A DNA stretch of 64,000 nucleotides from Kiritimatiellia bacterium. Its GTDB lineage: Bacteria; Verrucomicrobiota; Kiritimatiellia; RFP12; JAAYLN01. Below the pieces are notes generated by a model. The model saw only the letters and a list, made by a program, of their open reading frames with translations. It did not search any database and was not told the origin of the DNA. This document shows positions 1,779-59,962 of this stretch, in pieces; positions within the stretch are counted from its first letter, which is position 1, and every line of letters begins with the position of its first letter. The stretch spans positions 28,005 through 92,004 of the forward strand of contig JAZQOA010000072.1 of NCBI GenBank assembly GCA_045627605.1, in the 5' to 3' direction. The translations under genes were made by a program, and so were the position numbers.

Positions 1779-3512
1779 ATGTACTTGCTTGGCATAGACT
1801 TTGGCACGGGCGGATGCAAGGTGACGGCCGTCGATTACGAGGGCCGCCTTGTCGGCGACGCCTCCGTTGAATACGCGACCTATCACGAGCATCCCGGCTG
1901 GAGCGAGCAGGAGCCTTCCGACTGGTACGCGGCGATGTGCCAGGCGCTCGCCAAACTCGCCGCCAAGGGCGTCCGTCTCTCCGAGGTCGCCGCGCTCGCG
2001 CTCGACGGCTCCACGCACAACGCCGTGCTTCTCGGCCGCGACATGCGCCCCCTCCGCCGCACGATCATGTGGACTGACCAGCGCAGCACCGGGGAGTGCG
2101 CCTGGCTCCGCCGTGAAAAGGGCGATGAAATTTTCGCGACCTGCTACCAGATGCCTGCTCCGACCTGGACCTTGCCGCAGCTCATGTGGCTCAAGGCGCA
2201 CGAGCCCGAAGTCCTGGAACAGACGGCGCACGTCCTCTTTGTCAAGGACTACGTCCGCTTCCTCCTGACGGGGCATGTGGCGACGGACTACATCGAGGCG
2301 CAAGGCACGTTGATGTGCGACGTTAAATGGTTAAATAGCCCTACGGGCATTAAATGGTTAAATGGCCCTTCGGGCGTTAAAGAGTTAAATGGCCCTACGG
2401 GCGTTAAAGAGTTAAATGCGGCTTCGCCGTTGAATTTAAAGGCCTCTGGCCGATTTAACAATTTAACCTCTTATTGGGATTCCGATCTTGTCCAATTGTC
2501 AGGCTTGAAGATGTCCGCCATGCCGGAAATCATCAGGCCGACAGACGTTGTCGGCGGAGTGACTGCCGCAGCTTCTGCACAAACGGGGATTCCCGAAGGG
2601 ACGCCGGTTGTCTGCGGCACCAGCGACAGCGCCGTCGAGGACTATGGCGCGGGCGCCGTCGAGCCGGGCGACCTCATCATCAAGCTCGCCACGGCCGGCA
2701 ATGTCAACTCAATGACCGCCGCGCCGCATCCGCATCCAAAGACGCTCACCTACGCCCATGTCGTGCCGGGGATGTGGTACAGTGTGAGCGCCACCAACGC
2801 CGCGGCGCTTTGCCAGCGCTGGATGCGCGACACTTTTTTTGTTAAATGGTTAAATGGCCCTACGGGCATTAAAGAGTTAAATAGCCCTACGGGCATTAAA
2901 GAGTTAAATGCGGCTTCGCCGTTGAATTTAAAGGCCGCAGGCCGATTTAACAATTTAAAGCAATGCGATTTAACTTCTTACGAGGTGATGGATGCCGAAG
3001 CCGCGCAGTCGCCCATTGGCGCGGGAGGGGTGATGTTCCACCCGTACCTCCAGGGCGAGCGCTGCCCGTATTGGGATGCTAATCTCCGCGCCTCGTTTAC
3101 GGGCGTTTCGATTTCGTCGTCGCGCGGCGATTTTTGCCGTGCGCTTCTCGAAGGCGTGGCCTTCTCGTTGCGCGACTGCTACGGCACCCTTGAGGAGATG
3201 GGGCTTCCCGTCTCGCGCATTTTCCTGATTGGCGGAGGCGCGAAGTCCGCGCTCTGGAGCGAGATCGTCTGCAACGTCTTTGGCAAGCCCGTCGCAGTGC
3301 CCGCGCCTGCCGACGCCTCATTTGGCGCGGCGCTTCTGGCGGGCGTTGGCACGGGCGTCTTCGCAGACGCCAAGGCCGCCGTCGCCCAGTGCCTGCACAT
3401 CGCGCGGCGCATCGAGCCGGTGGCGGAGTCCGTCCGGGCCTATGACGCGCTCTACGCCCGCTACAAGGCCGTGCACGATGCCCTCGCGCCGGTTTATTCC
3501 GAAAGCAAATGA
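1779..3512 (+). CDS. xylB: FGGY-family carbohydrate kinase (xylulokinase-like) carrying two in-frame repeat-element insertions
   Basis: 577 aa. N-terminus MYLLGIDFGTGGCKV, then PGWSEQEPSDWY, TDQRS, GTSDS and LIGGGAKS motifs of FGGY kinases. It is about 90 aa longer than typical family members because of two AT-rich insertions. Confidence 0.75.
   Translation: MYLLGIDFGTGGCKVTAVDYEGRLVGDASVEYATYHEHPGWSEQEPSDWYAAMCQALAKLAAKGVRLSEVAALALDGSTHNAVLLGRDMRPLRRTIMWTDQRSTGECAWLRREKGDEIFATCYQMPAPTWTLPQLMWLKAHEPEVLEQTAHVLFVKDYVRFLLTGHVATDYIEAQGTLMCDVKWLNSPTGIKWLNGPSGVKELNGPTGVKELNAASPLNLKASGRFNNLTSYWDSDLVQLSGLKMSAMPEIIRPTDVVGGVTAAASAQTGIPEGTPVVCGTSDSAVEDYGAGAVEPGDLIIKLATAGNVNSMTAAPHPHPKTLTYAHVVPGMWYSVSATNAAALCQRWMRDTFFVKWLNGPTGIKELNSPTGIKELNAASPLNLKAAGRFNNLKQCDLTSYEVMDAEAAQSPIGAGGVMFHPYLQGERCPYWDANLRASFTGVSISSSRGDFCRALLEGVAFSLRDCYGTLEEMGLPVSRIFLIGGGAKSALWSEIVCNVFGKPVAVPAPADASFGAALLAGVGTGVFADAKAAVAQCLHIARRIEPVAESVRAYDALYARYKAVHDALAPVYSESK
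2322..2474 (+). mobile_element. MITE-like (ORF-less) derivative A of the 1256-1774 element family, in frame inside the kinase gene
   Basis: Left end GTTAAATGGTTAAAT (2322-2336). Right end ATTTAACAATTTAAC (2453-2467) pairs with it at 14/15 positions as an inverted repeat. The interior is five roughly 23-27-nt units, each a TTAAA-type block plus an 11-nt GC mini-hairpin (GCCCTACGGGC and similar). Translated as VKWLNSPTG-IKWLNGPSG-VKELNGPTG... Boundaries are +/-10 nt. Confidence 0.7.
2841..2981 (+). mobile_element. MITE-like (ORF-less) derivative B of the same family, in frame inside the kinase gene
   Basis: Same left end GTTAAATGGTTAAAT (2841-2855) and same unit order as copy A, with one fewer GCCC hairpin unit. 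Right end ATTTAACAATTTAAA...ATTTAAC (2945-2974). Same orientation and codon phase as copy A. Confidence 0.7.
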
Positions 3513-6851: not shown

Positions 6852-6917
6852 CTCGCGCTCTACGCCCGCTGCAAGGCCGTGCACGACGCCCTCGCACTGG
6901 TCTGTTCCGTCTTTTAG
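6852..6917 (+). pseudogene. orphan 3'-end fragment of a xylulokinase-like gene
   Basis: 6855-6895 matches 3447-3487 (the end of the intact kinase gene) at 39/41 nt by hand alignment, then 10/14, and ends at its own stop TAG (6915-6917). Reads ALYARCKAVHDALALVCSVF* versus ALYARYKAVHDALAPVYSESK*. Confidence 0.7.
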
Positions 6918-8056
6918 AGGCTTAACAGGAACTCAGTCACAGGCACAGCCGTGACATTCTCGGTGAGTTTCATTGCGCGTTCGCCCCGGTAAAGCAAGGT
7001 CAGTTCCGCTTCTGGGTAATCCTGATGAAAAGCCTCAAGGCCGGAGGCATCCGAGCGGTCGGCGCGTGTGGCGTTTTTGACCTCGATTGCGCGGAAGACA
7101 TTTTCCCCGTAGATGACGAAATCGACTTCCACGCCGCTTTTCGTTCGCCAGAAATAAAGTTGATTGGGTTCGCTCAGGTAATCATTCCACGCCCTGATTT
7201 GCTGATAGACCAGACCTTCAAGGCAGGCGCCCTCGATTTCCGTTGCCCGGTCAAGGGGGCCATGCGGGCGCAGGGCGCGGAAAACACCGGCGTCGAAGAA
7301 GTAGATTTTGTCATGGCCGATGAGCTGGCGTTTGGCCCGTTTGGAGAAAACGGGAAGGCGTGAGACAATCAGCATTTCCTCGAGGATTTCAAAGTAGGTG
7401 TCGACCGTTGATCGTTTGACTCCCGCTTCACGTGCGATTTCACTGGCTGACAGGACGCTCCCGTGCGAGAAACTGGCAATTTCCAGAAAGCGGAAAAATG
7501 AATCGACTTTTCGGATGACGCCTTCCGTGATGAGTTCTTCCTCAATGTAAAGGTCAAGATAGGTCTTCAGGATGTTCTCGCTTGAACCACTTTTCGGGAA
7601 ACGCACCAAGGGGAGCATGCCATATCGAAGTGCGTCTTCAAGGCAAAATGCCTCGCCGAGTTCCCTCGCGAGGAACGGGTGGCACATCCGCTTCGCCGCC
7701 CGACCGCCCAGAAGATCTGCATTCGCATTTCGCTTCAACTTGCGCGCGCTTGAACCCGTCATGATGAATCTGTACCCGTTTTCATTGTCCATCAGCTGAT
7801 GGACGACATCCAGAACTTCCGGCGCTCTTTGGATTTCATCGATGACGACAGTCCGCTTATTCGGTTTTGCATGAATGTAGTTTTTCAAGCGTTCCGGATA
7901 GGCGCGGAGTTCCCGTCGTGTCGCGGGATCAAGCAGGGAGATGATATGGGCTTTGGGGAAGTGTTCCTCAAGCCAGGTGCTCTTTCCCGTTCCTCGGGGA
8001 CCAAAGAGAAAGTAGCTTCCATCAATGTCGGGTAAGACTCTTTTTAAGCGTTTCAT
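6914..8056 (-). CDS. AAA+ ATPase, COG1373/DUF4143 family
   Basis: 380 aa. Walker A GPRGTGKST, Walker B VVIDEIQ, C-terminal region typical of DUF4143 proteins. Visibly lower GC than the surroundings. Confidence 0.8.
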   Translation of the reverse strand: MKRLKRVLPDIDGSYFLFGPRGTGKSTWLEEHFPKAHIISLLDPATRRELRAYPERLKNYIHAKPNKRTVVIDEIQRAPEVLDVVHQLMDNENGYRFIMTGSSARKLKRNANADLLGGRAAKRMCHPFLARELGEAFCLEDALRYGMLPLVRFPKSGSSENILKTYLDLYIEEELITEGVIRKVDSFFRFLEIASFSHGSVLSASEIAREAGVKRSTVDTYFEILEEMLIVSRLPVFSKRAKRQLIGHDKIYFFDAGVFRALRPHGPLDRATEIEGACLEGLVYQQIRAWNDYLSEPNQLYFWRTKSGVEVDFVIYGENVFRAIEVKNATRADRSDASGLEAFHQDYPEAELTLLYRGERAMKLTENVTAVPVTEFLLSL

Positions 8057-8161: not shown

Positions 8162-8345
8162 TGCGGTCATAGGCGTTTGGAATGGACGGCCATGTCGCCG
8201 CACTCAGTTTGTTGCACTACTTCGAAGTTCATCAATTCATCGCCGGAGCAATAGCGGAAAATGAGGGTTGGCGTGACAGTTTGTCTATGGACTTCGTCCG
8301 CAGATGGCGGAGTCGCGTCTGTCGACTGTCCTTTTTTTCAAAAAA

Positions 8346-8381
8346 GCCGCCGGACTTCCGTGGAAGTCCGGCGGCCTTTTG
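8346..8381 (-). terminator. rho-independent terminator downstream of blc (A/T runs on both sides, so possibly bidirectional)
   Basis: GCCGCCGGACTTCC-gtg-GGAAGTCCGGCGGC is a perfect 14-bp stem, flanked by TTTTTTT/AAAAAA (8332-8345) and TTTT (8378-8381). Confidence 0.8.
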
Positions 8382-17264: not shown

Positions 17265-17357
17265 GAGTTGGCAGAGGGGCGCGCTCCCGCGTGACCGCCG
17301 CGCTGGGAGTGCGGCGGGGAGTGGTGCGGGGGCCATGTGTTTCCCCCGGCCGCGTCT

Positions 17358-17406
17358 GTTGCAATTTCCCGTTGCATTTTCCCGTTGCTTTTTTGTTGCT
17401 TTTATC
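17358..17406 (+). promoter_or_regulatory. four tandem GTTGC-headed 11-13-nt direct repeats upstream of the Hpt/kinase genes
   Basis: GTTGCAATTTCCC, GTTGCATTTTCCC, GTTGCTTTTTT, GTTGCTTTTATC, ending 28 nt before the ATG at 17434. Confidence 0.35.
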
Positions 17407-17433
17407 ATGTGTTTTTGATAGGATTCAATCATC

Positions 17434-17817
17434 ATGATTAAAGACTCTAGTCAAATTTTCAGCCGTCTTGCTGCCATGGGCTGCAACATCGAGGAGACGC
17501 TGGAAGACACTTACATGGGCAACGAGGCGCTTTACCTGAAGCAACTTGTGCGCCTGGCCGGCTCCGATACGCCGCAGAAGATGCTCGCGGCTGTCCGGGG
17601 CGGCGATGTCGCGGAGTGTTTCGAGGCGGCGCACGAGCTGAAGGGACTCTACGCGACGATGGGGCTTGAGCCCTTGTATCGCTCGTGTTGCGTTATCGTC
17701 GAGGCGACGCGCGGCGAGCAGGGCCGTCTCGACGGCGTGCTTGAAAAAGCCGAGGCGCTCGCGGCCAGCCACGAGGCGGTGCTGGGGGAGATCAGGGGAT
17801 TCGGTGCGCCCGCCTGA
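17434..17817 (+). CDS. Hpt (histidine phosphotransfer) domain protein
   Basis: 127 aa containing the Hpt signature AAHELKG. Confidence 0.75.
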   Translation: MIKDSSQIFSRLAAMGCNIEETLEDTYMGNEALYLKQLVRLAGSDTPQKMLAAVRGGDVAECFEAAHELKGLYATMGLEPLYRSCCVIVEATRGEQGRLDGVLEKAEALAASHEAVLGEIRGFGAPA

Positions 17818-17842
17818 CGGGCGGGGAGGGAAAGGTTTGGCT

Positions 17843-20380
17843 ATGCAGGATTTTGAAAAGGCGGAAGGCTCCAAGGAACAGAAGATCGCGTCGAAAGGGT
17901 CGTCGAGCGACCAGATTCTTTCGGCTATCACGAGGATGCTTTATTCCTACAACTTGACCGTCGATCTCGAAACGGGCAAGTACACGATGATCGAAGGCAC
18001 GGGCCTGACGAATATGCGCGAACTCTTCCGCCGGACGGACGACTTGCGCCGGGCGAACGAAAGCGTTTTCAGAACCATCGAACCGAAGTTCGTGCCCAAG
18101 TTGCGCGAACTGGTGGGCCTCGACTACCTGCGCAACCGCACTGAGTCGGGATACGTCGGCACCTACGAGTACATGGAGCGCAACACCGACAACAACGCCG
18201 TCGACCACTGGGCCGAAGTGAATGTCTTCATCGGTCACGACGAAGACGGGGGGGTCGTGGCGAACATCCTCGGTCGTGACATCACGGAGTTCCACCACCG
18301 GCAGGAGGCGCGCGACAAGGAGCAGAAAGCCGCCGCGGCGAAGGATCAGCTGCTGTCGGAAATCACCCAGAAACTCTACGGCTTCAACGTCACCGTCGAC
18401 TTGCAGACGGGTCACTACTCGCTCATCGAGGGCACTGGCACTCCGGATTCGGTGAAGGCGTTCTCCGAGGGCGAGTTCTATCCCGACGTCATCGAGAAGT
18501 TGCTTGGCCACGTCGCCGGCTCGCACGAGAACGAGGTGCGCCGTCTCTTCGGGTTCGACTATCTCGTCAACCGCAAGAACGAGGAAGGCTATGGCGGCTA
18601 CATCGAGTACCCGATGGACTTCGGCGGCCGCCACCGCTGGCACGAGGCGAACCTCTTTTTCGGAACAAGCGCCACAGGGGAGCGCGTGGCGAACATCCTC
18701 GGCCGCGACGTGACCGAGGCCCACGAGCGCCAGGAAATCCGCGAACGGGAACTCAAGGCTGTCGCGACGAAGGACATGATCCTCTCCGACATCACGCAGC
18801 ACCTCTACGCCTACAACCAGACGGTCGACCTCGACAGCGGAAAGTACACGCTGATCACGGGAACGGGCATGGAGGAGGTGCGCGAGATCCTCTCACGGAC
18901 GGACGACTTCAAGACGAGCTTCAATGAATGCCGCAAGATCGTCGAGCCCGACCACTTGAAGGAGGTGGACGAACTGATTTCCCTGGAGGCCCTGCGCGCG
19001 CCGGGCGTGCCGGACGGCTTCGTGAACCGAATCGAGTATCCGGCGACGATCAACGGCAGCCGGCACTGGCACGAGGTCAATGTCTTCCGCGGCACCGGCG
19101 CATCGGGGCGGCCCGTCGCGAACGTTCTGGGCCGTGACGTGACCGAGGCCCACGAGCAAAGCGACACCGCCGCCCAGCTGGCGATCGCCCGCGCCGCAAA
19201 CAAGGCCAAGAGCGAGTTCCTTTCGAACATGTCGCACGACATCCGCACGCCGATGAACGCCATTCTCGGCATGACGACGATTGCGCAGACCTATATTTCG
19301 CAACGCACCGACGACGCAGTCTGCATCAAGCAGATTTCGGACTGCCTCGACAAGGTCCTCGTCGGCTCGCGCCACCTGCTCTCGCTCATCAACGACGTGC
19401 TCGACATGTCGCGCATGGAGTACGGGCGCCTCTCGATCAACGAGGCCCCGATCAAACTCGACGAAATCGTCAAGGGCGTCCTCTCGCTCATCCGCTCGCA
19501 GGGCGAGGACAAGGGCATTCTGGTGGAGTATTTCGAGGAGAAAATCATCCACCGCTCGCTGAAGGTCGACGCCATGCGCATCAACCAGATCTTCATCAAC
19601 ATCCTCGGCAACTCGGTCAAGTTCACGCCGAAGGGCGGCAAGATCACGTGGCGCATCAGCGAACAGCCGGGCGATCAGCCCGACGTCTCGGTTTTCCGTT
19701 TCGAATGCCGCGACACGGGCCGCGGTATGAGCGCGGAGTTCCTGCCCAAGCTCTTCGACCCGTTCGCGCAGGAGGGGCGCCAGTTCTCCGACACCTATGT
19801 CGGCACCGGTCTCGGCATGGCGATTACCAAGCAGATCGTCGAGCTGATGCACGGGTCGATCGTGGTCTCGAGCCGGCTGGGCGAAGGCACCACGTTTGTC
19901 GTCGAACTGCCGCTCAAGCACGCCGAAAAAATGACGGGCGACAAGGACGAGGCCAAAGCCTTGCCCAAGCCGGCGAGCACCAACATTGTCTCCGGCCGCT
20001 CCTTCCTCGTGGCCGAGGACGTTCCCTCCAACGCCGAGGTCATCACCCAGATGGTCGAGCTTTGCGGCGGGAAAATCGAGATCGCCGCCAACGGCCGCCT
20101 GGTCGTCGAGCGCTTCCGCCGTGCCAAGAAGGGCGAGTTCGACGCCATTTTCATGGACATCCGCATGCCCGAGATGAATGGCTACGAGGCCACCTCGGCA
20201 ATCCGCGCGCTCGACCGCGACGACGCGAAGACCATCCCGATCATCGCCATGAGTGCGGATGCCTTCGCCGAGGACATCGCCAGGGCCAAGCAGAGCGGCA
20301 TGAACGACCATGTGTCGAAGCCCATCCGCTTCAAGCAACTTTCCGCCACGCTTCAGAAAGTACTTCCCGAAAGGAAATGA
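17843..20380 (+). CDS. hybrid sensor histidine kinase with three tandem approximately 160-aa sensor repeats
   Basis: ATG at 17843 after GGGGAGGG. Three paralogous modules begin ILSAITRMLYSYNLTVDLETGKY, LLSEITQKLYGFNVTVDLQTGHY and ILSDITQHLYAYNQTVDLDSGKY. Then H-box SNMSHDIRTPMNAILGM, HATPase_c and REC (FMDIRMPEMNG...SKP). Confidence 0.9.
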   Translation: MQDFEKAEGSKEQKIASKGSSSDQILSAITRMLYSYNLTVDLETGKYTMIEGTGLTNMRELFRRTDDLRRANESVFRTIEPKFVPKLRELVGLDYLRNRTESGYVGTYEYMERNTDNNAVDHWAEVNVFIGHDEDGGVVANILGRDITEFHHRQEARDKEQKAAAAKDQLLSEITQKLYGFNVTVDLQTGHYSLIEGTGTPDSVKAFSEGEFYPDVIEKLLGHVAGSHENEVRRLFGFDYLVNRKNEEGYGGYIEYPMDFGGRHRWHEANLFFGTSATGERVANILGRDVTEAHERQEIRERELKAVATKDMILSDITQHLYAYNQTVDLDSGKYTLITGTGMEEVREILSRTDDFKTSFNECRKIVEPDHLKEVDELISLEALRAPGVPDGFVNRIEYPATINGSRHWHEVNVFRGTGASGRPVANVLGRDVTEAHEQSDTAAQLAIARAANKAKSEFLSNMSHDIRTPMNAILGMTTIAQTYISQRTDDAVCIKQISDCLDKVLVGSRHLLSLINDVLDMSRMEYGRLSINEAPIKLDEIVKGVLSLIRSQGEDKGILVEYFEEKIIHRSLKVDAMRINQIFINILGNSVKFTPKGGKITWRISEQPGDQPDVSVFRFECRDTGRGMSAEFLPKLFDPFAQEGRQFSDTYVGTGLGMAITKQIVELMHGSIVVSSRLGEGTTFVVELPLKHAEKMTGDKDEAKALPKPASTNIVSGRSFLVAEDVPSNAEVITQMVELCGGKIEIAANGRLVVERFRRAKKGEFDAIFMDIRMPEMNGYEATSAIRALDRDDAKTIPIIAMSADAFAEDIARAKQSGMNDHVSKPIRFKQLSATLQKVLPERK

Positions 20381-20384
20381 CGAG

Positions 20385-22835
20385 ATGATTACCGACTTGA
20401 ACGGCCGCAGCGCCGCGATAGCCTGTGCGAGCGACGAGGACTCCGAGCGCCTGGCCGGGGCCCTTGCCGAACTCGGCGTCGAGACCGATATCTACGCTGC
20501 GGACGCCTCTGGCGCCGTGTTGGCCATCGCGAGCGGCCGCCGCTACGACTTCGTGCTGGTGCACTGCACGGCCAAGACGCTGTCAGACCGCGTCATGTGC
20601 GAGACCTACCGTCTCGCCGGCGACATCGCCGCACGACACTTGGTCGCCATCACTTCCGACTGGTCGCATGTCGAGTCGCTTGCGCCGGGGCTTGGGTTCT
20701 GCGCCTATCTGCGCCCGAGCGCCGACCGCGACGAGGTGCGCCGCGTGATGGGGAAAATCCTCGCCGACGAAAAACGCGCTCTGGCAAAGACCGAGCACCC
20801 CGACCTTATGGGCAAGCACTTCCTCGTGGTGGACAACAACGTTTCCAACGTCGAGATCCTCAAAAACGCCATCGAGTGCTTTGGCGGCACCGTTGACGTG
20901 TCCAGCAGCGGGGAAGAGGCCATATCGAAGATGCTCAACGCGCCGGCATCGGGCGACGCCGCCTATTCGATGGTGCTGATGGACATCTACATGCCGCCGG
21001 GCATCGACGGCCTCGAAGCCACGCAGCGCTTCCGCAATTCGGCCCATCCGCTGGCGAAGACGCTGCCGATCGTCATCGTCTCGGGCGATGCCGACCCGTT
21101 GATCACCGTTCGCGAGCGCGAGGTCGGTGCCAGCGCCTTTCACCTGAAGCCGCTCACGCGCTCGGCCCTCGTCGAGATTCTCCGCCGCTTCCTCGATTTG
21201 CCGCCCCAGGCCGAAACCAACGTCGAGCTCACCAGGATCCGCCGCATTTCCGAGTTGAAGGAGGACAACCGCAAGCTTACGTCGTTCCTCAACACCCAGA
21301 AGGCCGCCAGCGCGTTCTTCAACCACATGTTCGACGCGCTTCCCCAGCCGGTCTTCCTCAAGGATGCGGCAAACTCCCAGTACCTGCGGTGCAACCCCGC
21401 GTTCGTCGAAGCCAACGGCCATACAAGCGAGCAGATTATCGGAATGTTCGACCGCGATATCTTCCCGGCCGAATTTGCCGAGGCGTTCGTCGCGCATGAC
21501 AAGGCCACCCTCGCCGCACCTGACGGGCGGTGCTTTTTCCCGACCCACGGCTGCGGTGCCGATGGCTGCGAACACCGCCTCTGGGACAAGTGGCAGGTCG
21601 TTATCGACGGCCAGGATGGGCGGCGCTACATTCTGGGCGCACTCAGTGAGGTCACGAAGCGCGTCGAGGACGCGAATCGCATCCTCCAGCAGGAGCGCCA
21701 GATCAACGAGGCCGTCAAGAAGGAGCGCGACGTGGCCGTCGCCGCCGAAAAGGCGAAGAGTTTCTTCTTCTCCGCGATCAGCCACGACATCCGAACGCCG
21801 CTCAACTCGGTGATAGGTTTCGTCGACATGCTCGAGCGCGAGGACGACCCCGCGCTGCGCCAGGAGTACATCCGAAACATCAAGTCCAGCGGCCGCGACC
21901 TCATGCGCCTCGTCGACGACATGATCGACCTCGTCAAGTACGACAATGGTGGCGCGGCTGTCTTGGCCGAGCCTTTCCAGGTCGGCGATCTCGCCCGGGA
22001 GTGCAGGGACGCGCTGAAGGGCGCCGTCGAGGCGAAGGGCCTTGAGTTCACGCTCGACCTCCCCGACGACATGCCCTTGCTGGTCGTCGATCGCCGCCAT
22101 TTCCGCCAGATCCTGATGAATCTCGTCGACAACGCCGTCAAGTTCACCGAAAAGGGTTCTGTGAAGGTGTCGCTGTCGTATGTGTCGGAGGTACTCACAC
22201 TGCGTGTGAAGGACACGGGCTGCGGCATCGCGCGAGACGACCTGGAGCGCATCCTGAAGCCCTACGTGAAGGTTGAAAACCGGACGCAGACGGGCGGCAC
22301 GGGCATCGGATTGGCAATCGTCAACCTTCTTGTCGAACGCATGGGTGGCAAACTCTCGGTGCAGAGCCTCGTCGGGGTGGGGTCTGAATTCTCGGTCGTC
22401 GTGCCTGACGTGAAGGTCGGGAAGATAAAGGCCGCCGACACCGGACTGAAGGCGTCAAAGCTCCTGCCTTTCGACGGCAAGCGCCTGCTGTTGGTGGACG
22501 ACGTGAAGCTCAACCTGATGGTGCTGTCGTCGTATTGCCGCAAGCTTGGCGCGGCGAAATGCCTGATGGCTTCCTGCGGGGAGGAGGCGCTGCAGGTGCT
22601 GGCGAAGGAACCGGTCGACATGGTACTGACCGACATCCTGATGCCGGGCATGGGCGGCGTGGGCCTCGTGAAGGAAATCCGCGCCAACAAGGATTATGAA
22701 AAAATGCCCGTCCATGCCGTGACGGCTGATGTCGAGTTCGCCAAGAATGGCGACACGCGGAACTTCGACGGCGTGATCATGAAGCCGCTTACGCTCGACA
22801 GCCTCAGCCGCCACTTTGCGAAATACACCCCTTGA
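20385..22835 (+). CDS. hybrid sensor kinase/response regulator (pseudo-REC, REC, PAS-like, HisKA, HATPase_c, REC)
   Basis: ATG at 20385, 4 nt after the upstream stop. REC LVVDNNVSN...LMDIYMPPGIDG, H-box SAISHDIRTPLNSVIGF, DTGCGI and GTGIGLAIV, C-terminal REC LLVDDVKLN...TDILMPGMGG. Confidence 0.85.
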   Translation: MITDLNGRSAAIACASDEDSERLAGALAELGVETDIYAADASGAVLAIASGRRYDFVLVHCTAKTLSDRVMCETYRLAGDIAARHLVAITSDWSHVESLAPGLGFCAYLRPSADRDEVRRVMGKILADEKRALAKTEHPDLMGKHFLVVDNNVSNVEILKNAIECFGGTVDVSSSGEEAISKMLNAPASGDAAYSMVLMDIYMPPGIDGLEATQRFRNSAHPLAKTLPIVIVSGDADPLITVREREVGASAFHLKPLTRSALVEILRRFLDLPPQAETNVELTRIRRISELKEDNRKLTSFLNTQKAASAFFNHMFDALPQPVFLKDAANSQYLRCNPAFVEANGHTSEQIIGMFDRDIFPAEFAEAFVAHDKATLAAPDGRCFFPTHGCGADGCEHRLWDKWQVVIDGQDGRRYILGALSEVTKRVEDANRILQQERQINEAVKKERDVAVAAEKAKSFFFSAISHDIRTPLNSVIGFVDMLEREDDPALRQEYIRNIKSSGRDLMRLVDDMIDLVKYDNGGAAVLAEPFQVGDLARECRDALKGAVEAKGLEFTLDLPDDMPLLVVDRRHFRQILMNLVDNAVKFTEKGSVKVSLSYVSEVLTLRVKDTGCGIARDDLERILKPYVKVENRTQTGGTGIGLAIVNLLVERMGGKLSVQSLVGVGSEFSVVVPDVKVGKIKAADTGLKASKLLPFDGKRLLLVDDVKLNLMVLSSYCRKLGAAKCLMASCGEEALQVLAKEPVDMVLTDILMPGMGGVGLVKEIRANKDYEKMPVHAVTADVEFAKNGDTRNFDGVIMKPLTLDSLSRHFAKYTP

Positions 22836-22845
22836 TTTGAGGCCT

Positions 22846-22907
22846 GAAGGCGACTTCCTTCTTGTCAGCCTCAAGGCGGGCGGCTTCGGTCTCAACCTTG
22901 CCGCCGC
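22846..22907 (+). pseudogene. orphan fragment of an SNF2-helicase paralogue (helicase-C motif region)
   Basis: 56/62 nt identical by hand alignment to 16962-17023 of the intact SNF2 gene. Encodes EGDFLLVSLKAGGFGLNLAAA versus EGDFFLISLKAGGFGLNLTAA. Starts 10 nt after the kinase stop. Confidence 0.65.
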
Positions 22908-22955
22908 GTCCTTCTGGGAAACGACGCATTGCAATATCCCGCCCGCGTCAGGGGA

Positions 22956-23015
22956 GGTTGTAGGTTGAAGGTTGTAGGTTGAAGGTTGGAGGTTGAAGGT
23001 TGAAGGTTGGAGGTG
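22956..23015. repeat. heptamer tandem array (GGTTGNA) x ~8.5
   Basis: GGTTGTA GGTTGAA GGTTGTA GGTTGAA GGTTGGA GGTTGAA GGTTGAA GGTTGGA GGTG. Confidence 0.9.
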
Positions 23016-23585
23016 CGAGTGGGGAGTAGGCATCGGTACCGCCGCGCAAAACATCGGTGCTTCTCGTCTCATGTCTCTCGTCTCATGTCTCACGCCCTCG
23101 CTCATCACATGAGGACACGAGACAAGAGACACGAGACGCAAAAGGTTCGCGCCCGGTGCCCCGCAAGAGCCAGTAGGCATCGGTACCGCCGCGCAAAACA
23201 TCGGTGCTTCTCGTCTCTTGTCTCATGTCTCACGCCCTCGCTCATCACATGAGGACACGAGACAAGAGACACGAGACGCGAAAGGTTCGCGCCCGGTGCC
23301 CCGCAAGAGCCGGTAGGCATCGGTACCGCCGCGCAAAACATCGGTGCTTCTCGTTTCTTGTCTCATGTCTCACGCCCTTGCTCATCACATGAGGACACGA
23401 GACAAGAGACACGAGACGCGAAAGGTTCCCGCCCGGTGCCCCGCAAGAGCCGGTAGGCATCGGTACCGCCGCGCAAAACATCGGTGCTTCTCGTCTCATG
23501 TCTCTCGTCTCTTGTCTCACGCCCTTGCTCATCACATGAGGACACGAGACAAGAGACACGAGACGCGAAAGGTTCGCGCCAGCTT
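23016..23585. repeat. four tandem copies of a ~140-bp unit, each with a long heptad-built hairpin
   Basis: The GTAGGCATCGGTACC landmark occurs at 23025, 23173, 23313 and 23453, giving periods of 148, 140 and 140. Units are near-identical. The example stem 23212-23231 / 23259-23278 pairs at 18/20 positions with a 27-nt loop. The last unit ends about 6 nt from the hemW stop. Confidence 0.9.
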
Positions 23586-24725
23586 TCACGCGAGCAGTTC
23601 CGCGATGGCGGCGTCCGCGACTTCGCGTCCGCGCCGCGTGAGCGCCCAGCGCCCGGGGCGGATTTCCTGCGTGATGCCGTGCGTGGCGAGACGCCTTAGC
23701 GTCGATTCCCATTCGGCGACGCGCACCGCGGCGGCGGGGTGGGTCTTGGCGAAGGCCGCGGGCGAAGCGCCTTCCGCCATGCGCAGCGCGTAGGCAAAGC
23801 GTTCCTCGGCGTCGTCCGCCGGCGAAAGCGTCTCGTCGTTCTCGGCGGGCGGAAGCGAGCCGGCGCCGAGCGCCGCCCGCCATTTCGCGACGTCGGGCGC
23901 GATGGTGCGGCGCGTTAGCCCAAGGCGCGAGGCCGCGGCGGGGCCGAGCCCCAGGTAGTCCTCTCCGCGCCAGCAGGCGAGGTTGTGGCGGCATTCGAAG
24001 CCGGGAAGCGCGTAGTTGGAGATTTCGTAGCGAACAAAACCGGCGGCGGCGAGGATGTCCTCCGTCCGCGCCAGAAGGTCCATTTGCGCGTCGTCCGCCA
24101 GGGGGGCGAGCCTGCCGGCGGCGATGTCGCGGCCCAACGCCGTTCCGGACTCGACAATCAGGCCGTAGACCGAGAGGTGGCGGGGGGCGAGCGCCAGCGC
24201 CTTTGCAAGCGTCTTTTCCCAGGCGGGGGCTTCGACACCGGGGTAGCCCGCGATGAGATCGAAGCCGACATTGCCGAAGCCGTGTGCGCGGGCGAGCGCA
24301 AGGGCGTCTGCCACGTCGCGCGCCGTGTGGCGGCGGCCCATGGCCTTGAGGACGGCGTCGTCAAGCGACTGCGCGCCGAAACTAAGGCGGTTGACGCCGA
24401 GGGCGCGGAGCGCGTCGAGAAGGGCGGGGGTCGTGATTTCCGGCGAGGGATTGAGCTCGACGGTCCATTCCGTCGCGCGGGAAATGTCAATGCCCGCGGC
24501 GGCGAGTTCCGCCACGGTTTCGCGGAGGCCGTCGGACCCGAGCAATCCGGGTGTGCCGCCGCCGAAATAGATGGTCCCGGGGGCGAGATGGCCGCCTGCG
24601 CGGAGTGCGCATTCGCGCCCGATGCGCCTTGGGAAGTCGCGGGCGCCCTCCAAGCCGGCAATGGAATAGAGTGCGCAGTAGCGGCACTTCGAGAGGCAGA
24701 AGGGGACGTGGAGGTAGAGGTTCAT
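23586..24725 (-). CDS. hemW: radical SAM family heme chaperone / oxygen-independent coproporphyrinogen oxidase-like (HemW/HemN family)
   Basis: 379 aa from the ATG at 24725. LYLHVPFCLSKCRYCALYS (CX3CX2C), YFGGGTP and a HemN C-terminal-like region. Confidence 0.8.
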   Translation of the reverse strand: MNLYLHVPFCLSKCRYCALYSIAGLEGARDFPRRIGRECALRAGGHLAPGTIYFGGGTPGLLGSDGLRETVAELAAAGIDISRATEWTVELNPSPEITTPALLDALRALGVNRLSFGAQSLDDAVLKAMGRRHTARDVADALALARAHGFGNVGFDLIAGYPGVEAPAWEKTLAKALALAPRHLSVYGLIVESGTALGRDIAAGRLAPLADDAQMDLLARTEDILAAAGFVRYEISNYALPGFECRHNLACWRGEDYLGLGPAAASRLGLTRRTIAPDVAKWRAALGAGSLPPAENDETLSPADDAEERFAYALRMAEGASPAAFAKTHPAAAVRVAEWESTLRRLATHGITQEIRPGRWALTRRGREVADAAIAELLA

Positions 24726-24751
24726 CGCGGCGGGGGCGCGGGCGGCGGGGG

Positions 24752-25357
24752 TCACTCGTCTTCTTCGAGGATGATTTCGGGAAGCCGCTCCTCCTTCGAC
24801 TTCCAGCCGTTGGTCCAGTCCGTCCCCGGGTCGAAGAACTCCTCGCCGGGGCGGAGGTCGTCCTTCGTGTCGGGGCGTCCGTCCGGCCCGCATGAGAAGA
24901 GGACGGGCAGGGCGTTGGTTCCCCGTTCGTAGAAGTAGGGGCGGCCCCAGGGGTCTTCCATCAGCTGGACGAGGTAGGGGCCGTCCCAGCCGGGTTCGCC
25001 GAGGTCCTTGTTGAGCGCGGCGAGGCCCTGCTCCGTTTCGGGGAAGCGCCCCACGTGCATTTTGTAGCGGCCGAGGGCGGTGGCGAGGACATCGAGCGAC
25101 TTGACCGCCGTGAGGTGCGGGATGGGGCGGTCGGAGTTGTCGCGGACAGTGCGCCCCACCTTGCCGATGAGGAGCCCGCCGACAATGGCGAGGATGAAAA
25201 TCGCCGCGAAGATGACGCGCGGGGCGTAGATTTCGCGCAGCGTGGGCGTCGCCGAAATCCCGGCAAGACGGCGTTCCGCCTCGCGCCTGATCTGGAGCTT
25301 GCGCCGTCTGCGGCGCGCGGCGTCGCCGGGGTTGTGTTTCGCGGGGCCTTGCTGCAT
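24752..25357 (-). CDS. GspG-like (type II secretion pseudopilin C-terminal domain) membrane protein
   Basis: 201 aa. Arg-rich N-terminus, one TM (VIFAAIFILAIVGGLLIG), then ...GRFPETEQGLAAL...WDGPYL...DPWGRPYFY...SCGPDGRPDTKDD, typical of the GspG C-terminal domain. No G/FTLIE prepilin motif seen. Confidence 0.65.
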   Translation of the reverse strand: MQQGPAKHNPGDAARRRRRKLQIRREAERRLAGISATPTLREIYAPRVIFAAIFILAIVGGLLIGKVGRTVRDNSDRPIPHLTAVKSLDVLATALGRYKMHVGRFPETEQGLAALNKDLGEPGWDGPYLVQLMEDPWGRPYFYERGTNALPVLFSCGPDGRPDTKDDLRPGEEFFDPGTDWTNGWKSKEERLPEIILEEDE

Positions 25358-39342: not shown

Positions 39343-39432
39343 GGATGAGGTTCCTTTTTGCTAATTGGATGAAACGCCGAAAATGATTATAGCATTTTTC
39401 AGGACGCACGCCGAGAGGCTTCGCTTCGGCTC

Positions 39433-39502
39433 GATGCTCAGATGCTCGGATGCTCGATGTTCGGATGCTCTGATGCTCGATGTTCGGATGCTCGGATGCT
39501 CT
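39433..39502. repeat. 7-8-nt tandem array (GATGCTCN) x 9 in a divergent promoter region
   Basis: GATGCTCA GATGCTCG GATGCTC GATGTTCG GATGCTCT GATGCTC GATGTTCG GATGCTCG GATGCTCT, between galM (start 39342, minus) and the SGNH gene (start 39583, plus). Confidence 0.85.
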
Positions 39503-39582: not shown

Positions 39583-40455
39583 ATGAAAATGCATCATGTA
39601 GTGGCCGCGGCAGTTTTCCTGGCGGCGTTTGCGGCGCAGGCGGAATTCATCGTCAAGAGCGGTGATGTACTCGCCTTTCTGGGCGATTCGATCACCCAGC
39701 AAGGGCAGGGATTGCCTGTCGGGTACGTCAACCTCGTGTTGCATTCGCTCACGAAGGAAGGGGTCGATGTGAAACCCGTCAAGGCTGGCATTTCCGGGCA
39801 CAAGTCCGACAACATGCTCGGGCGGCTTGATCGCGATGTCCTTGGCAAGGGCGCGAAGGTCATGACGTTGTCGTGCGGCGTCAACGACGTGTGGCACCAG
39901 GACGGCGGGCGCGGCGTCCTGCTCGACGCCTTCAAGACGAACGTGACCGCGATCCTCGACAAGTGCGCCGCCTCCAACTGCACGGTGGTGGTGATGACGG
40001 CGTCGATGTTCCAGTACCACGGCTGGGAAAAGGACCCCCACAACGTGAAGCTCGCGCCCTACAACGACTTCCTGCGCGAAATCGCCGCCGCGCGCAAGCT
40101 CCCGCTTGCGGACGTCAACAAGGCGATGTGGGAAGCCTATGCCGCCGATCCCGAGGGACGGCTCACGGCGGATGGCGTCCACATGAACTGGTCGGGCAAT
40201 TTCCTGATGGCGAAATGCGTCCTCGCCGCGCTTGGGGCCGACGCCGCGAAGCTTGCGGCCTATGAGCGCGATTGGCGCGCAATTATTGGCGGCTCGGAAC
40301 TGAAAATTCCGCTTTCAATCGACGAGATGGACAAGCTCAAGGCCGCTGCCGGCCAAATGGGCGAATCCAGTCAGGTTGCCGACTTCGTCCGTGTGCGCTG
40401 TGGACTCACGGATGGCCGCGGTTCGCATGCCCCGATGCCGGAGCCTGTCAAGTGA
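39583..40455 (+). CDS. secreted SGNH/GDSL hydrolase
   Basis: 290 aa with a signal peptide. LAFLGDSITQQG, CGVNDV and DGVHMN blocks. Confidence 0.8.
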   Translation: MKMHHVVAAAVFLAAFAAQAEFIVKSGDVLAFLGDSITQQGQGLPVGYVNLVLHSLTKEGVDVKPVKAGISGHKSDNMLGRLDRDVLGKGAKVMTLSCGVNDVWHQDGGRGVLLDAFKTNVTAILDKCAASNCTVVVMTASMFQYHGWEKDPHNVKLAPYNDFLREIAAARKLPLADVNKAMWEAYAADPEGRLTADGVHMNWSGNFLMAKCVLAALGADAAKLAAYERDWRAIIGGSELKIPLSIDEMDKLKAAAGQMGESSQVADFVRVRCGLTDGRGSHAPMPEPVK

Positions 40456-56288: not shown

Positions 56289-59906
<3,618 letters not shown>

Positions 59907-59930
59907 GTCCCTGGTGGCTTCTAGCAAAAA

Positions 59931-59962
59931 GGCGCGACGGCGAAAGCCGCCGCGCCTTTTTT
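59931..59962 (+). terminator. rho-independent terminator of nifJ
   Basis: GGCGCGACGGC-gaaa-GCCGCCGCGCC followed by TTTTTT. Confidence 0.85.

What the first reader, a model, noticed from the sequence alone, without database searches (positions are those of the whole stretch)
23016..23585. Four tandem 140-bp units, each folding into a long heptad-built hairpin, occupy most of the kinase to hemW convergent gap
Seen:
- Near-identical units start at 23025, 23173, 23313 and 23453, with unit lengths of 148, 140 and 140 nt; the last is truncated about 6 nt from the hemW stop.
- Each unit contains CGTCTC(T/A)TGTCTC(A/T)...TGTCTC - 27-nt loop - GAGACAAGAGACACGAGACG, giving 18/20 paired positions. Alternative registers are possible because both arms are 7-nt repeats.
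- Each unit also has a second 8-bp helix (CCGGTGCC...GGCATCGG) and a CATCGGT direct repeat.
- The 140-nt period is not a multiple of 3, so the overlapping track ORFs change frame between units and are not credible proteins.
- There are no unique spacers, so this is not a CRISPR array.

Inference: this could be an array of structured-RNA genes, a REP/BIME-like cluster of extragenic palindromes acting as a bidirectional terminator or mRNA stabiliser, or the recombination-prone end of the inserted signalling block. I do not recognise the unit from any described repeat family.
Basis: partly seen in the sequence, partly recalled or inferred. Interest (0 to 1): 0.65.

Follow-up and report, generated by a model that had tools for sequence, protein, structure and literature searches.

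The report
Strain-variable tandem array of heptad hairpins
Just after the hemW gene sits a non-coding array of four ~140-base hairpin-forming repeats whose number differs between strains and which some strains lack altogether. Its core hairpin, built from 7-base words, belongs to a widespread and apparently undescribed kind of bacterial palindromic repeat.

Summary
Window 23025-23580 holds 3.9 head-to-tail copies of a 140-nt unit (94% matches), lying between a hybrid histidine kinase and hemW. Each unit folds into a long imperfect hairpin whose arms are GTCTCNN/NNGAGAC heptads.

It matches no Rfam family, is not CRISPR, and lacks the U tract of an intrinsic terminator. No second copy occurs in the 64-kb window.

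Same-species assemblies (HemW 98% identical) show 4, 2 or 1 units. Arms differ by whole heptads. Two assemblies have no unit and carry a DpnII-type restriction-modification cassette in exactly this slot. The array is therefore dispensable and fast-evolving.

Pattern scans show that heptad-built GTCTC/GAGAC hairpins are abundant in at least 10 phyla, in both polarities. They hug stop codons. In 11 of 11 genes tested they sit in frame inside genes such as dnaE, metH and a Mur ligase, which is RPE-like behaviour.

Best reading (0.55): a locally amplified palindromic minisatellite of this selfish or slippage-driven class. Any REP/BIME-like RNA effect would be secondary and is untested.

Novelty: new variant of a known kind. 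Interest: 0.5.

The parts
22948..23585 (.). The whole replaceable segment: the AGGTTGN heptad array plus four hairpin units. It is bounded on the left by CCCGCG (22942-22947) and on the right by the hemW stop codon.
   Evidence: In L248 the same left flank (gcaacatcccgcccgcg) is joined to a DpnII-type R-M cassette that runs to 8 nt from the hemW stop. In L120 the segment, with 1 unit, follows CCCGCG after the SNF2 gene.
22955..23014 (+). Heptad array (AGGTTGN) x8.6. On the hemW-sense strand it reads (NCAACCT)n, which is C-rich and G-poor.
   Evidence: TRF; the repeat finder D3. It is shorter in L118 and L120 by inspection of the sequences. It has no similarity to the unit.
23025..23172 (.). 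Unit 1 (147-148 nt). It has an extra left-arm heptad. The core heptad hairpin is at 23065-23138.
   Evidence: RNA MFE is -58.2 kcal/mol (+) and -76.5 (-).
23173..23312 (.). Unit 2 (140 nt). The core heptad hairpin is at 23212-23278.
23313..23452 (.). Unit 3 (140 nt). The core hairpin is at 23352-23418. Its first heptad is GTTTC, as in L118 unit 1 and L120.
23453..23580 (.). Unit 4. It has an extra left-arm heptad and is truncated after GCGCC, so it lacks the 18-nt junction. The core hairpin is at 23492-23565.
   Evidence: The terminal unit is truncated at the same point in L118 and L120.
23586..24755 (-). hemW (radical-SAM haem chaperone, 389 aa). The variable slot begins immediately after its stop codon.
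   Evidence: Pfam Radical_SAM and HemN_C. P0001 is 389 aa and 100% identical. Sequence diverges right after the stop in L247 and L249.
20310..22835 (+). Convergent hybrid histidine kinase. It is the last gene of a 5.66-kb block (about 17292-22947) that is absent in L120.
   Evidence: Pfam. Block borders come, with CCCGCG at both ends (17286-17291 and 22942-22947).

Best explanation
The array is a dispensable, fast-evolving, non-coding minisatellite. It arose by local tandem amplification of a roughly 122-140-nt imperfect palindrome.

The palindrome's core is a 'heptad hairpin': 3-4 GTCTCNN words, a short structured loop, then 3 NNGAGAC words. It sits in a hypervariable slot that begins right after the hemW stop codon.

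**Shown.**
- Arms gain and lose whole 7-nt words.
- Assembled unit number differs between assemblies (4, 2, 1).
- The whole segment can be replaced by a restriction-modification cassette.
- The core hairpin belongs to a widespread class of GTCTC/GAGAC heptad hairpins. These are copied within genomes, lie next to stop codons, and are tolerated in frame inside essential genes.

**Inferred.**
- The heptad changes come from replication slippage. Heptamer repeats are known to be over-represented and length-variable in bacteria.
- The unit-number changes come from unequal recombination between 140-nt units.
- The element persists as selfish or near-neutral DNA rather than because hemW or the kinases need it.
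- If read-through transcripts from either convergent gene cover it, each unit would fold into a very stable stem-loop. That stem-loop could act like REP/BIME elements, as a 3'-exonuclease barrier and a partial roadblock. I regard this as a side effect.
For: **Copy number and arm length differ between same-species assemblies** (HemW of L120 and L247 98% identical to the window's).
- Window: 4 units.
- L118/L119: 2 units, the second missing 14 nt (two heptads) of the right arm.
- L120: 1 unit.
- L250 and L251: the unit is present, but the contigs break inside it.
- L247 and L248/L249: no unit and no AGGTTG array. An N6_N4_Mtase/DpnII/MethyltransfD12 cassette lies 8 nt from the hemW stop.

**Pattern of differences.** Units differ by 7-nt and 14-nt indels plus transitions. 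Variants are shared in a mosaic pattern between units and strains.

**No sign of selection on structure or independent transcription.**
- No compensatory pair changes.
- No promoter-like site.
- No Rfam family.

**Local amplification.** There is no second copy of the unit in the window, in plasmids or in about 1.6 Mb of fetched loci. None of about 240 other heptad-hairpin loci shows a long-period tandem array of such units.

**The class is real.**
- 98 of 115 and 117 of 120 hits have at least 3 heptads in an arm.
- The median distance from stop codon to hairpin is 0-10 nt.
- 10 of 10 sampled intragenic cases, plus L109 MetH (two hairpins matched by the scan, a third read from the translation), are bona fide genes with the hairpin in frame in linkers or loops. 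Efficient terminators would not be tolerated there.
- By inspection, copies within one genome share heptad order and loop remnants.

**Literature.**
- Heptameric repeats are over-represented, length-variable and sometimes inverted (PMC4692102, PMC2700814, PMC4679880).
- RPEs insert in frame (PMC10969869).
- Intragenic REPs exist (PMC3733652).
Against: - No transcript data exist, so an RNA-level role cannot be excluded.
- Each unit folds far better than shuffles (z about -4 to -5). The array starts 6 nt after a stop codon between convergent genes, which is where terminators and stabilisers sit.
- Copy numbers come from short-read assemblies. The related ones are MEGAHIT k141 contigs, and a 140-nt repeat can collapse in them. 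So 1, 2 and 4 are minimum estimates.
- Only 64 kb of this genome could be searched. A dispersed family elsewhere in the genome is not excluded. Four Logan contigs break inside the unit, which fits either polymorphism or extra copies.
- The 18-nt inter-unit junction cannot be derived from the flanks of the single-unit allele. The array therefore did not arise by simple duplication of that allele.
Confidence: 0.55

Rival explanations
1. It is a selected bidirectional transcription barrier or mRNA stabiliser. The stacked hairpins insulate the convergent hemW and kinase transcription units and protect both 3' ends, as REP/BIME elements or 'hairpin cluster' terminators do. Unit number tunes the strength of the effect.
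For: - The position is right: the array starts 6 nt after the hemW stop, in a convergent gap.
- The stem-loops are very stable on both strands.
- Class members hug stop codons, and convergent plus tandem contexts outnumber divergent ones (23+44 vs 15, and 14+40 vs 10).
- Clusters of hairpins without U tracts have been proposed as terminators (PMC8355165, abstract seen).
- REPs are reported mostly downstream of ORFs (PMC3733652).
Against: - Same-species strains do without it entirely. In those, an R-M cassette lies 8 nt from the hemW stop.
- L120 keeps a unit although the convergent kinase operon is gone.
- There is no U tract, while canonical A/U-tract terminators exist at 8341-8380 and 59926-59961.
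- Hairpins of the same class are tolerated inside dnaE, metH, a Mur ligase gene and others.
- L118 unit 2 has lost two of the three right-arm heptads.
- There is no covariation.
- The class shows no sense-strand folding preference.
Confidence: 0.2
2. It is a mobile non-autonomous element (MITE/REP/RPE-like) that inserted after hemW and then multiplied. The unit is one member of a dispersed family moved by a transposase encoded elsewhere in the genome.
For: - The class behaves like invasive DNA. It has many copies per genome with shared heptad order, by inspection.
- It occurs in frame inside genes.
- The segment occupies a slot that also receives an R-M cassette.
- The inter-unit junction is not derivable from local flanks.
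- Logan contigs break inside the unit.
- The unit starts with GTAG and the hairpin starts with CGTC, which are the two tags of the REP superfamilies (PMC3733652).
Against: - The unit's non-heptad flanks occur nowhere else in the window, in plasmids or in 1.6 Mb of loci.
- The ORFs scanned in the window include no transposase or RAYT-like gene.
- There is no target-site-duplication signal for the class.
- The stems are far longer than the 6-13 bp of REPs (PMC3733652).
- The GTAG and CGTC matches may be chance.
Confidence: 0.12
3. It is an array of small structured RNA genes, for example regulatory sRNAs or an antitoxin-like repeat RNA, processed into unit-length molecules.
For: - It consists of tandem, near-identical, strongly folding units.
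- The hemW-sense strand folds 10-18 kcal/mol better per unit and uses more G.U pairs.
- The slot hosts a defence system (R-M) in other strains, and some defence systems use repeat RNAs.
Against: - No promoter-like site and no Rfam match, even at E<=10.
- No compensatory changes.
- z-scores are equal on both strands.
- C-to-T variants between units keep pairing on the opposite (+) strand.
- No toxin or effector gene is adjacent.
- Unit number and arm length are unconstrained.
Confidence: 0.06
4. It is a binding array for a protein that reads 7-nt words on single-stranded nucleic acid. One candidate is a cold-shock-domain protein, whose preferred site is the heptanucleotide GTCTTTG/T. Such binding would melt or stabilise the hairpins in a regulated way.
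For: - The 7-nt period and a GTCTC core are conserved across phyla.
- The B. subtilis CspB consensus is 5'-GTCTTTG/T-3' (PMC1904285).
- Heptamer repeats have been proposed as Csp, S1 or CsrA sites (PMC4679880).
Against: - This rests purely on resemblance.
- Both polarities are abundant, so no strand or arm rule emerges.
- The element is dispensable in this species.
- No binding data exist.
Confidence: 0.04
5. It is an assembly artefact: a single unit was inflated, or strain variants were chimerically joined, by the assembler.
For: The period of 140 nt is close to typical maximum k-mer sizes. Related contigs are MEGAHIT k141. Logan contigs break in the repeat.
Against: - The four units are distinguishable by indels and SNPs.
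- Two independent assemblies of one sample agree on the 2-unit allele (L118 and L119).
- The inter-unit junction recurs identically in the window and in L118.
Confidence: 0.03

Closest known systems
REP/BIME elements (repetitive extragenic palindromes; GTAG- and CGTC-tagged superfamilies, PMC3733652)
   Same: - Imperfect palindromes in extragenic gaps, mostly downstream of ORFs between convergent or co-directional genes.
- Often clustered.
- Variable between strains.
- Occasionally intragenic.
- Proposed to stabilise mRNA or impede transcription.
   Different: - REPs are 20-40 bp with 6-13-bp stems and occur in tens to hundreds of dispersed copies, often with a RAYT transposase.
- Here the unit is 122-140 nt with heptad-built arms of about 21-28 nt.
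- It is seen at a single locus as head-to-tail copies. BIMEs alternate orientation.
- No RAYT-like gene was found among the window ORFs scanned.
Rickettsia palindromic elements (RPE) and other intragenic MITEs (PMC10969869)
   Same: The class of heptad hairpins to which the core belongs inserts in frame into unrelated housekeeping genes at linkers and loops. RPEs behave the same way.
   Different: - RPEs are family-specific sequences of about 100-150 bp that encode a conserved peptide and are confined to Rickettsia.
- Heptad hairpins are about 45-90 bp, built from a 7-nt word, and found in many phyla.
- The window's own units are intergenic and tandem.
Heptameric simple-sequence repeats: cyanobacterial STRR, Xanthomonas GGGAATC / Nostoc GGGGAYT repeats (PMC4692102), Beggiatoaceae TAACTGA repeats (PMC4679880), Geobacter metallireducens heptanucleotide families shown as strand-switching pairs (PMC2700814)
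   Same: - 7-nt period.
- Intergenic.
- 2 to many units.
- Length-variable between close relatives.
- Sometimes arranged as inverted pairs able to form stem-loops.
- Function unknown; polymerase slippage has been proposed.
   Different: - The words differ (GTCTCNN/NNGAGAC here).
- The obligatory inverted arrangement forms a hairpin.
- The distribution is pan-phylum.
- Copies occur in frame inside genes.
- Here there is a second level of repetition with a 140-nt period.
Intrinsic terminators and 'hairpin cluster' terminators (PMC8355165)
   Same: Stable hairpins immediately downstream of a stop codon, with several in a row.
   Different: There is no U tract. The same genome has canonical terminators. 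The element is absent in some strains.

Membership tests
Minisatellite / VNTR | Head-to-tail copies of a 10-200-nt unit | tested here: met
   TRF reports period 140, 3.9 copies and 94% matches. Copies are in register.
Minisatellite / VNTR | Copy number polymorphic among strains of one species | tested here: met
   4 units (window), 2 (L118/L119), 1 (L120) and 0 (L247, L248), with HemW of L120 and L247 98% identical to the window's. Caveat: these are short-read assemblies.
REP/BIME | Short (20-40 bp) imperfect palindrome with a 6-13-bp stem | tested here: not met
   The unit is 122-140 nt. The core hairpin is about 67-74 nt with arms of 21-28 nt. The definition is from PMC3733652.
REP/BIME | Many dispersed copies in the genome | tested here: inconclusive
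   One locus only in the 64-kb window and none in other fetched DNA. The rest of the genome could not be searched.
REP/BIME | Unpaired GTAG or CGTC tag at one end | tested here: inconclusive
   The unit begins (A/G)GTAGG and the core hairpin begins CGTCTC. However, the CGTC is paired, and the GTAG is not adjacent to a short REP stem. This may be chance.
REP/BIME | Association with a RAYT (IS200/IS605-like) transposase | tested here: not met
   No Y1 transposase domain in the window ORFs scanned or in the neighbours listed for L118 and L120. The scan was partial and window-only.
REP/BIME | Extragenic, downstream of ORFs, between convergent or co-directional genes | tested here: met
   It lies in the convergent kinase/hemW gap, 6 nt from the hemW stop.
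MITE / RPE | Terminal inverted repeats plus target-site duplication, and dispersed copies | tested here: not met
   No direct-repeat signal abuts class palindromes (0.9% vs 2.3% in the control). The unit is not dispersed in the searchable DNA.
MITE / RPE | In-frame insertion into protein-coding genes | tested here: met
   Met for the hairpin class: 10 of 10 tested genes plus MetH in L109. Not met for the window's own units, which are intergenic.
Heptameric SSR (STRR-like) | Tandem 7-nt words, at least 2-3 units, intergenic, length-variable between relatives | tested here: met
   Arms have 3-4 and 3 heptads, with +/-7 and -14 nt differences between units and strains. The AGGTTGN array of 8.6 units in the window is shorter in L118 and L120 by inspection.
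CRISPR array | Repeats separated by unique spacers of similar length | tested here: not met
   The units are contiguous. The only inter-unit sequence is the same 18-nt junction each time.
Intrinsic (Rho-independent) terminator | GC-rich stem directly followed by a U tract | tested here: not met
   The scan finds only two weak sites inside the units, each a 9-bp stem followed by CGTGTCTCTT. Canonical examples exist at 8341-8380 and 59926-59961.
Any Rfam RNA family | Score at or above the family gathering threshold | tested here: not met
   0 hits in the window. Only sub-threshold miRNA-hairpin noise at E<=10. 0 relevant hits in 18 class loci.
Type III toxin-antitoxin repeat RNA (ToxI-like) | Tandem RNA repeats immediately upstream of an endoribonuclease toxin gene | tested here: not met
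   The neighbours are hemW and a hybrid kinase. The L118 and L120 gene lists show no toxin-like gene.

The most novel reading that the evidence does not exclude
GTCTC/GAGAC heptad hairpins are a pan-bacterial, actively propagating class of palindromic element, a kind of 'heptad RPE'. They colonise the first nucleotides after stop codons and the inter-domain linkers of essential genes (dnaE, metH, a Mur ligase gene, an FAD-dependent flavoprotein oxidoreductase gene) in at least 10 phyla.

They would be copied or grown by an as yet unknown mechanism tied to the 7-nt word, either a dedicated enzyme or a polymerase-footprint slippage process, and perhaps read by a heptad-binding protein.

The hemW array would be the first case in which a whole element has been amplified into a higher-order tandem repeat.
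Probability: 0.22. Interest if true: 0.75.

Novelty: new variant of a known kind. Interest (0 to 1): 0.5.

Why it matters
For this locus alone the answer is modest. It is a strain-variable marker in a hypervariable slot that also receives a restriction-modification cassette. That makes it useful for strain typing and for understanding how such slots turn over.

The wider point is that its core hairpin is one example of a very common architecture that I could not find described. The hairpin arms are built from a 7-nt word. Examples occur in soil, sediment, rumen and groundwater bacteria of many phyla. They sit tightly against stop codons and in frame inside essential genes.

If these elements spread actively, they extend the Rickettsia RPE phenomenon to much of the bacterial tree. 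They would also point to an unknown copying mechanism. If they grow in place by slippage, they give a concrete, testable case for why heptamer repeats are over-represented in bacteria.

Either way, gene callers and terminator or ncRNA predictors will misread them.

Tried and rejected
1. **Polarity rule (GTCTC arm always 5').** Rejected. The reversed pattern also saturates the metagenome scan with clear heptad hairpins.
2. **RNA strand from G.U/A.C asymmetry.** Undecided.
   - The hemW-sense strand folds better.
   - However, z-scores are equal.
   - Inter-unit C-to-T changes preserve pairing on the other strand.
   - The class shows no sense preference.
3. **Covariation.** No compensatory pairs among the 7 copies, which are too similar to be informative.
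4. **Left flank as a degenerate 'unit 0', or the AGGTTG array derived from the unit.** No similarity above shuffles.
5. **Target-site duplications around class hairpins.** None.
6. **Conservation downstream of hemW in more distant relatives (57-65% identical HemW).** There is no element. L122 has an overlapping next gene. L123 has an ordinary 88-nt gap with a simple GC hairpin.
7. **Plasmid database.** Nothing for the unit, and nothing for the 6-kb region beyond kinase-domain similarity.
8. **Exact look-up of the window's own proteins.** Not on record.
9. **Other families.** attC, iteron/centromere, ToxI-like and CRISPR readings were considered and dropped, because the defining neighbours or motifs are absent.
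10. **DNA-uptake-sequence idea.** Neisseria DUS pairs also form hairpins after genes. Dropped, because there is only one locus in 64 kb.
11. **Unit-specific collection scan.** Not run. The species' HemW cluster has no JGI member, so a metagenome scan for the unit was judged futile.
Full report
**1. What is there**

The gap between a + strand hybrid histidine kinase (20310-22835) and the - strand hemW gene (stop at 23586-23588) is 750 nt. Tandem Repeats Finder reports an array at 23025-23580 with period 140, 3.9 copies and 94% matches. The repeat finder places the copies at 23025, 23172, 23312 and 23452. The invariant 24-nt right arm and a 32-nt left segment each occur exactly four times in the window, against zero in shuffles.

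Just upstream lies a second repeat, (AGGTTGN) x8.6, at 22955-23014.

Each unit contains 3-4 GTCTCNN words, a loop region that itself holds a perfect CTCAT-CAC-ATGAG stem, and 3 NNGAGAC words. Small helices flank this core. The whole 140 nt can fold as one long imperfect hairpin:
- RNA + strand: -57.1 kcal/mol, z -4.2
- RNA - strand: -67.3 kcal/mol, z -4.3
- DNA: -34.7 kcal/mol, z -4.8

The minor corrections are listed in the observation check.

**2. What it is not**

- No Rfam family reaches its gathering score anywhere in the window. At E<=10 only sub-threshold miRNA-precursor models match, which simply means 'long hairpin'.
- There are no spacers. The inter-unit sequence is the same 18-nt junction each time, so it is not CRISPR.
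- No sigma-70-like promoter is found, and there is no stem followed by a U tract. The same genome does have textbook A-tract/stem/U-tract terminators at 8341-8380 and 59926-59961.
- The ORFs I scanned in the window include no transposase-like gene.

**3. Comparison with relatives of the same species**

The window's HemW is a 389-aa protein (P0001). Its nearest named relatives are Lentisphaerae and Kiritimatiellia MAG HemW at about 50-54% identity. The organism is therefore probably a PVC-group bacterium; this is an inference.

Its 90%-identity cluster has 9 members. The two compared directly (P0125 of L120, P0127 of L247) are 98% identical to P0001. Their contigs give three haplotypes of the region downstream of hemW.

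- **H1** (window; L118 and L119 from one sample). SNF2 helicase, Hpt, two hybrid kinases, AGGTTG array, units, hemW. The window has 4 units and L118 has 2. The second L118 unit lacks 14 nt, which is two heptads, of its right arm.
- **H2** (L120). The 5.66-kb kinase block is absent, yet the AGGTTG array (shorter) and one unit still sit next to the hemW stop.
- **H3** (L247, L248/L249). There is no AGGTTG array and no unit. Instead, an N6_N4 methyltransferase, a DpnII endonuclease and a D12 methyltransferase end 8 nt from the hemW stop.

The far end of the H3 cassette joins 'gcaacatcccgcccgcg'. This is the same flank that in the window precedes 'tcaggggAGGTTG...' at 22948. Window 22948-23585 is therefore one replaceable segment of a hypervariable slot, bounded by CCCGCG on the left and the hemW stop on the right. 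CCCGCG also marks both ends of the kinase block.

Two further Logan contigs (L250, L251) carry the start of a unit and break inside it.

In more distant relatives (57-65% identical HemW) nothing comparable follows hemW.

The conclusions from this section are:
- The element belongs to the hemW-proximal slot, not to the kinase block.
- It is dispensable.
- It changes quickly.

Caveat: these are short-read assemblies and the related contigs are MEGAHIT k141. The unit counts are therefore minimum estimates.

**4. How the copies differ**

An alignment of the 7 available units shows three kinds of difference:
- whole-heptad indels: +7 nt in the left arm of window units 1 and 4, and -14 nt in the right arm of L118 unit 2;
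- transitions, for example GTCTC to GTTTC;
- a mosaic sharing of variants between units and strains.

This is what slippage and unequal exchange or gene conversion would produce.

RNAalifold finds 36 pairs but no compensatory change. The one-sided changes are C-to-U opposite G on the + strand. The - strand (hemW sense) folds 10-18 kcal/mol better per unit and uses more G.U pairs. The strand signals therefore conflict, and I cannot assign a functional strand.

The 18-nt junction cannot be derived from the flanks of the single-unit allele. That allele is more likely a collapsed array than the ancestor.

**5. The core hairpin belongs to a large class**

For a uniform random sequence of that size I estimate about 30-40 chance hits; this is my own arithmetic. 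Of the 115 loci, 98 have at least 3 heptads in an arm and 73 have at least 3 in both arms. They are therefore real extended heptad hairpins.

By record title, the hits come from these groups:
- Acidobacteriota (several classes)
- Gemmatimonadota
- Nitrospirota
- Chloroflexota
- Planctomycetota
- Verrucomicrobiota, Kiritimatiellia and Victivallales
- Armatimonadota
- Elusimicrobiota
- Peregrinibacteria
- Desulfobacterota-type lineages
- Bacteroidota
- others

*Reversed pattern.* The reversed arrangement (GAGAC arm first) likewise saturates the metagenome scan. Of 120 loci, 117 have at least 3 heptads in an arm. There is therefore no polarity rule.

*Databases and literature.* No Rfam family covers the hairpins in 18 loci. 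A full-text search for the words found only cloning primers.

*Relation to the window's unit.* The unit's non-heptad flanks occur in none of these loci. No other locus has a long-period tandem array of such hairpins. The tandem amplification is thus peculiar to this locus.

**6. Behaviour of the class**

These figures rest on crude longest-ORF gene calls:
- Tandem gene contexts: 44 and 40 hairpins in the two sets.
- Convergent contexts: 23 and 14.
- Divergent contexts: 15 and 10.
- Median distance from stop codon to hairpin: 0-10 nt.

About a quarter of the hairpins lie inside long ORFs. I tested ten of those in lower-GC genomes, and all ten are bona fide genes with the hairpin in frame in a linker or loop:

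| Locus | Gene or domain context |
|---|---|
| L016 | between FAD_binding_2 and Succ_DH_flav_C |
| L035 | DnaE, between the HHH_6 and OB domains |
| L087 | penicillin amidase |
| L108 | between MoCoBD_1 and MoCoBD_2 |
| L101 | between Pkinase and AAA_16 |
| L053 | central loop of an MFS transporter |
| L187 | between CoA_binding and Ligase_CoA |
| L007 | Mur ligase C-terminal domain |
| L133 | after a Ketoacyl-synt_2 domain |
| L160 | BNR/Sortilin-repeat protein |

In L109, an 849-aa MetH has heptad-derived stretches in each of its three inter-domain linkers. Two of them are hairpins matched by the pattern scan; the third I read from the translation.

By inspection, copies within one genome share heptad order and loop remnants (Thermoanaerobaculia JBASRI01 and Dehalococcoidia CAZPYZ01). 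This suggests they are copied rather than independently grown. No target-site duplication is detectable. In tandem gene contexts neither strand folds systematically better (13 vs 17).

Elements tolerated inside dnaE or metH cannot be efficient terminators or RNA-decay signals. The class therefore looks like selfish or near-neutral palindromic DNA. It behaves like Rickettsia RPEs (PMC10969869) and like the intragenic REPs noted by Di Nocera et al. (PMC3733652).

**7. Relation to the literature**

- Heptameric simple repeats are known to be over-represented in bacteria, length-variable between close relatives and occasionally inverted. A polymerase-footprint slippage hypothesis has been proposed for them (PMC4692102).
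- Other heptamer systems are the Beggiatoaceae TAACTGA repeats (PMC4679880) and the Geobacter heptanucleotide families drawn as strand-switching pairs (PMC2700814).
- REPs have 6-13-bp stems, GTAG or CGTC tags and often RAYT genes (PMC3733652). The present unit fails the size criterion. Within the DNA I could search, it also fails the copy-number and RAYT criteria.
- B. subtilis CspB prefers the heptanucleotide GTCTTTG/T (PMC1904285). This is a lead for a heptad reader, not evidence for one.

**8. Verdict**

*Best explanation (0.55).* The array is a dispensable, locally amplified palindromic minisatellite whose core is a member of the heptad-hairpin class.
- It evolves by +/-7-nt changes in the arms and +/-140-nt changes in unit number.
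- It lies in a slot that also receives a restriction-modification cassette.
- A REP/BIME-like effect on read-through transcripts is plausible but untested, and I regard it as secondary.

*Rivals.*
- Selected bidirectional barrier or mRNA stabiliser: 0.20
- Mobile MITE/REP-like insertion: 0.12
- ncRNA gene array: 0.06
- Heptad-binding-protein array: 0.04
- Assembly artefact: 0.03

*Novelty.* New variant of a known kind. It combines features of extragenic palindromes and heptamer SSRs, and adds a higher-order tandem repeat.

*Interest.* 0.5. This comes mainly from the class-level result, not from the locus itself.

Noticed in passing
window 1253-1279 and 1728-1775, flanking ORF 1349-1741 (+): (AATGGTTA) x3.4 and (ATTTAACC) x5.9 are reverse complements of each other. 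They are inverted octad arrays flanking a small gene that matches Pfam 23S_rRNA_IVP (four-helix-bundle protein, E 2.9e-20). The arrangement looks like a small cassette with repeat-array ends.
   Followed up: partly
window 2321-2470 and 2841-2970, inside ORF 1779-3512 (+): An FGGY-family sugar kinase gene carries two in-frame insertions of about 130-150 nt.
- They are built from the same TTAAATGG word plus small GC stem-loops, as 27-nt repeats (GTTAAATGGCCCTACGGGCATTAAAGA).
- The ORF stays open through both.
- The Pfam FGGY_N match is split into 2 stretches and the FGGY_C match is stretched relative to its profile.

This is RPE-like intragenic palindromic DNA in this genome.
   Followed up: partly
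window 39429-39501: An octad array (GCTCGGAT/GCTCGATGTTCGGAT, about 9.5 units) lies in the divergent gap upstream of a GDSL-lipase gene (39583-40455). It is another short-period repeat in this genome.
   Followed up: no
window 17286-17291 and 22942-22947; L120 7340-7390; L248 4280-4324: The hexamer CCCGCG sits at every junction of the variable region downstream of hemW: both ends of the 5.66-kb Hpt plus two-kinase block (absent in L120), the start of the repeat segment, and the start of the R-M cassette in L248. It may be microhomology or a recombination core.
   Followed up: partly
L247 4152-5716; L248 1333-4017: Same-species strains carry a DpnII-type restriction-modification cassette (N6_N4_Mtase, DpnII, MethyltransfD12). 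It lies convergent to hemW, 8 nt from its stop, in place of the repeats. The slot therefore behaves like a defence or variable hotspot.
   Followed up: partly
L035 1322-1374; L109 2453-2545 and 2777-2824; L016, L087, L108, L101, L053, L187, L007, L133, L160: Heptad hairpins lie in frame inside housekeeping genes of unrelated phyla, always in linkers or loops. Examples are DnaE, MetH, a Mur ligase, an FAD_binding_2/Succ_DH_flav_C flavoprotein, a xanthine-dehydrogenase-like enzyme, a Ser/Thr kinase and an MFS transporter.
   Followed up: partly
L030, L044, L076, L079, L086, L111 (Nocardia cyriacigeorgica), L103 (N. vulneris): The pattern also caught a Nocardia-specific dispersed palindromic repeat with conserved loop and flanks (gttcgcggccc...GTCTCGCGTCTCCGC...GCGGAGACGCGAGAC...gggccgcgaac). 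It has only two 'heptads' and is probably an unrelated REP/MITE-like family.
   Followed up: no
window 8341-8380 and 59926-59961: These are canonical bidirectional intrinsic terminators (A tract, GC stem, T tract). The second lies 20 nt after a pyruvate:ferredoxin oxidoreductase gene (56289-59906). They show that this organism uses ordinary U-tract terminators.
   Followed up: partly
window 60001-62000: GC drops to 0.50, against about 0.63 elsewhere. The region holds an AAA_14/DUF4143 ATPase gene (60046-61383). A second gene of the same family lies at 6914-8056. The region may be foreign DNA.
   Followed up: no
L119, L121, L250, L251 (Logan contigs): Four independent Logan contigs end inside the unit, within 9-160 nt of the hemW stop. 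This is expected if the unit is repeated or polymorphic within those samples.
   Followed up: no
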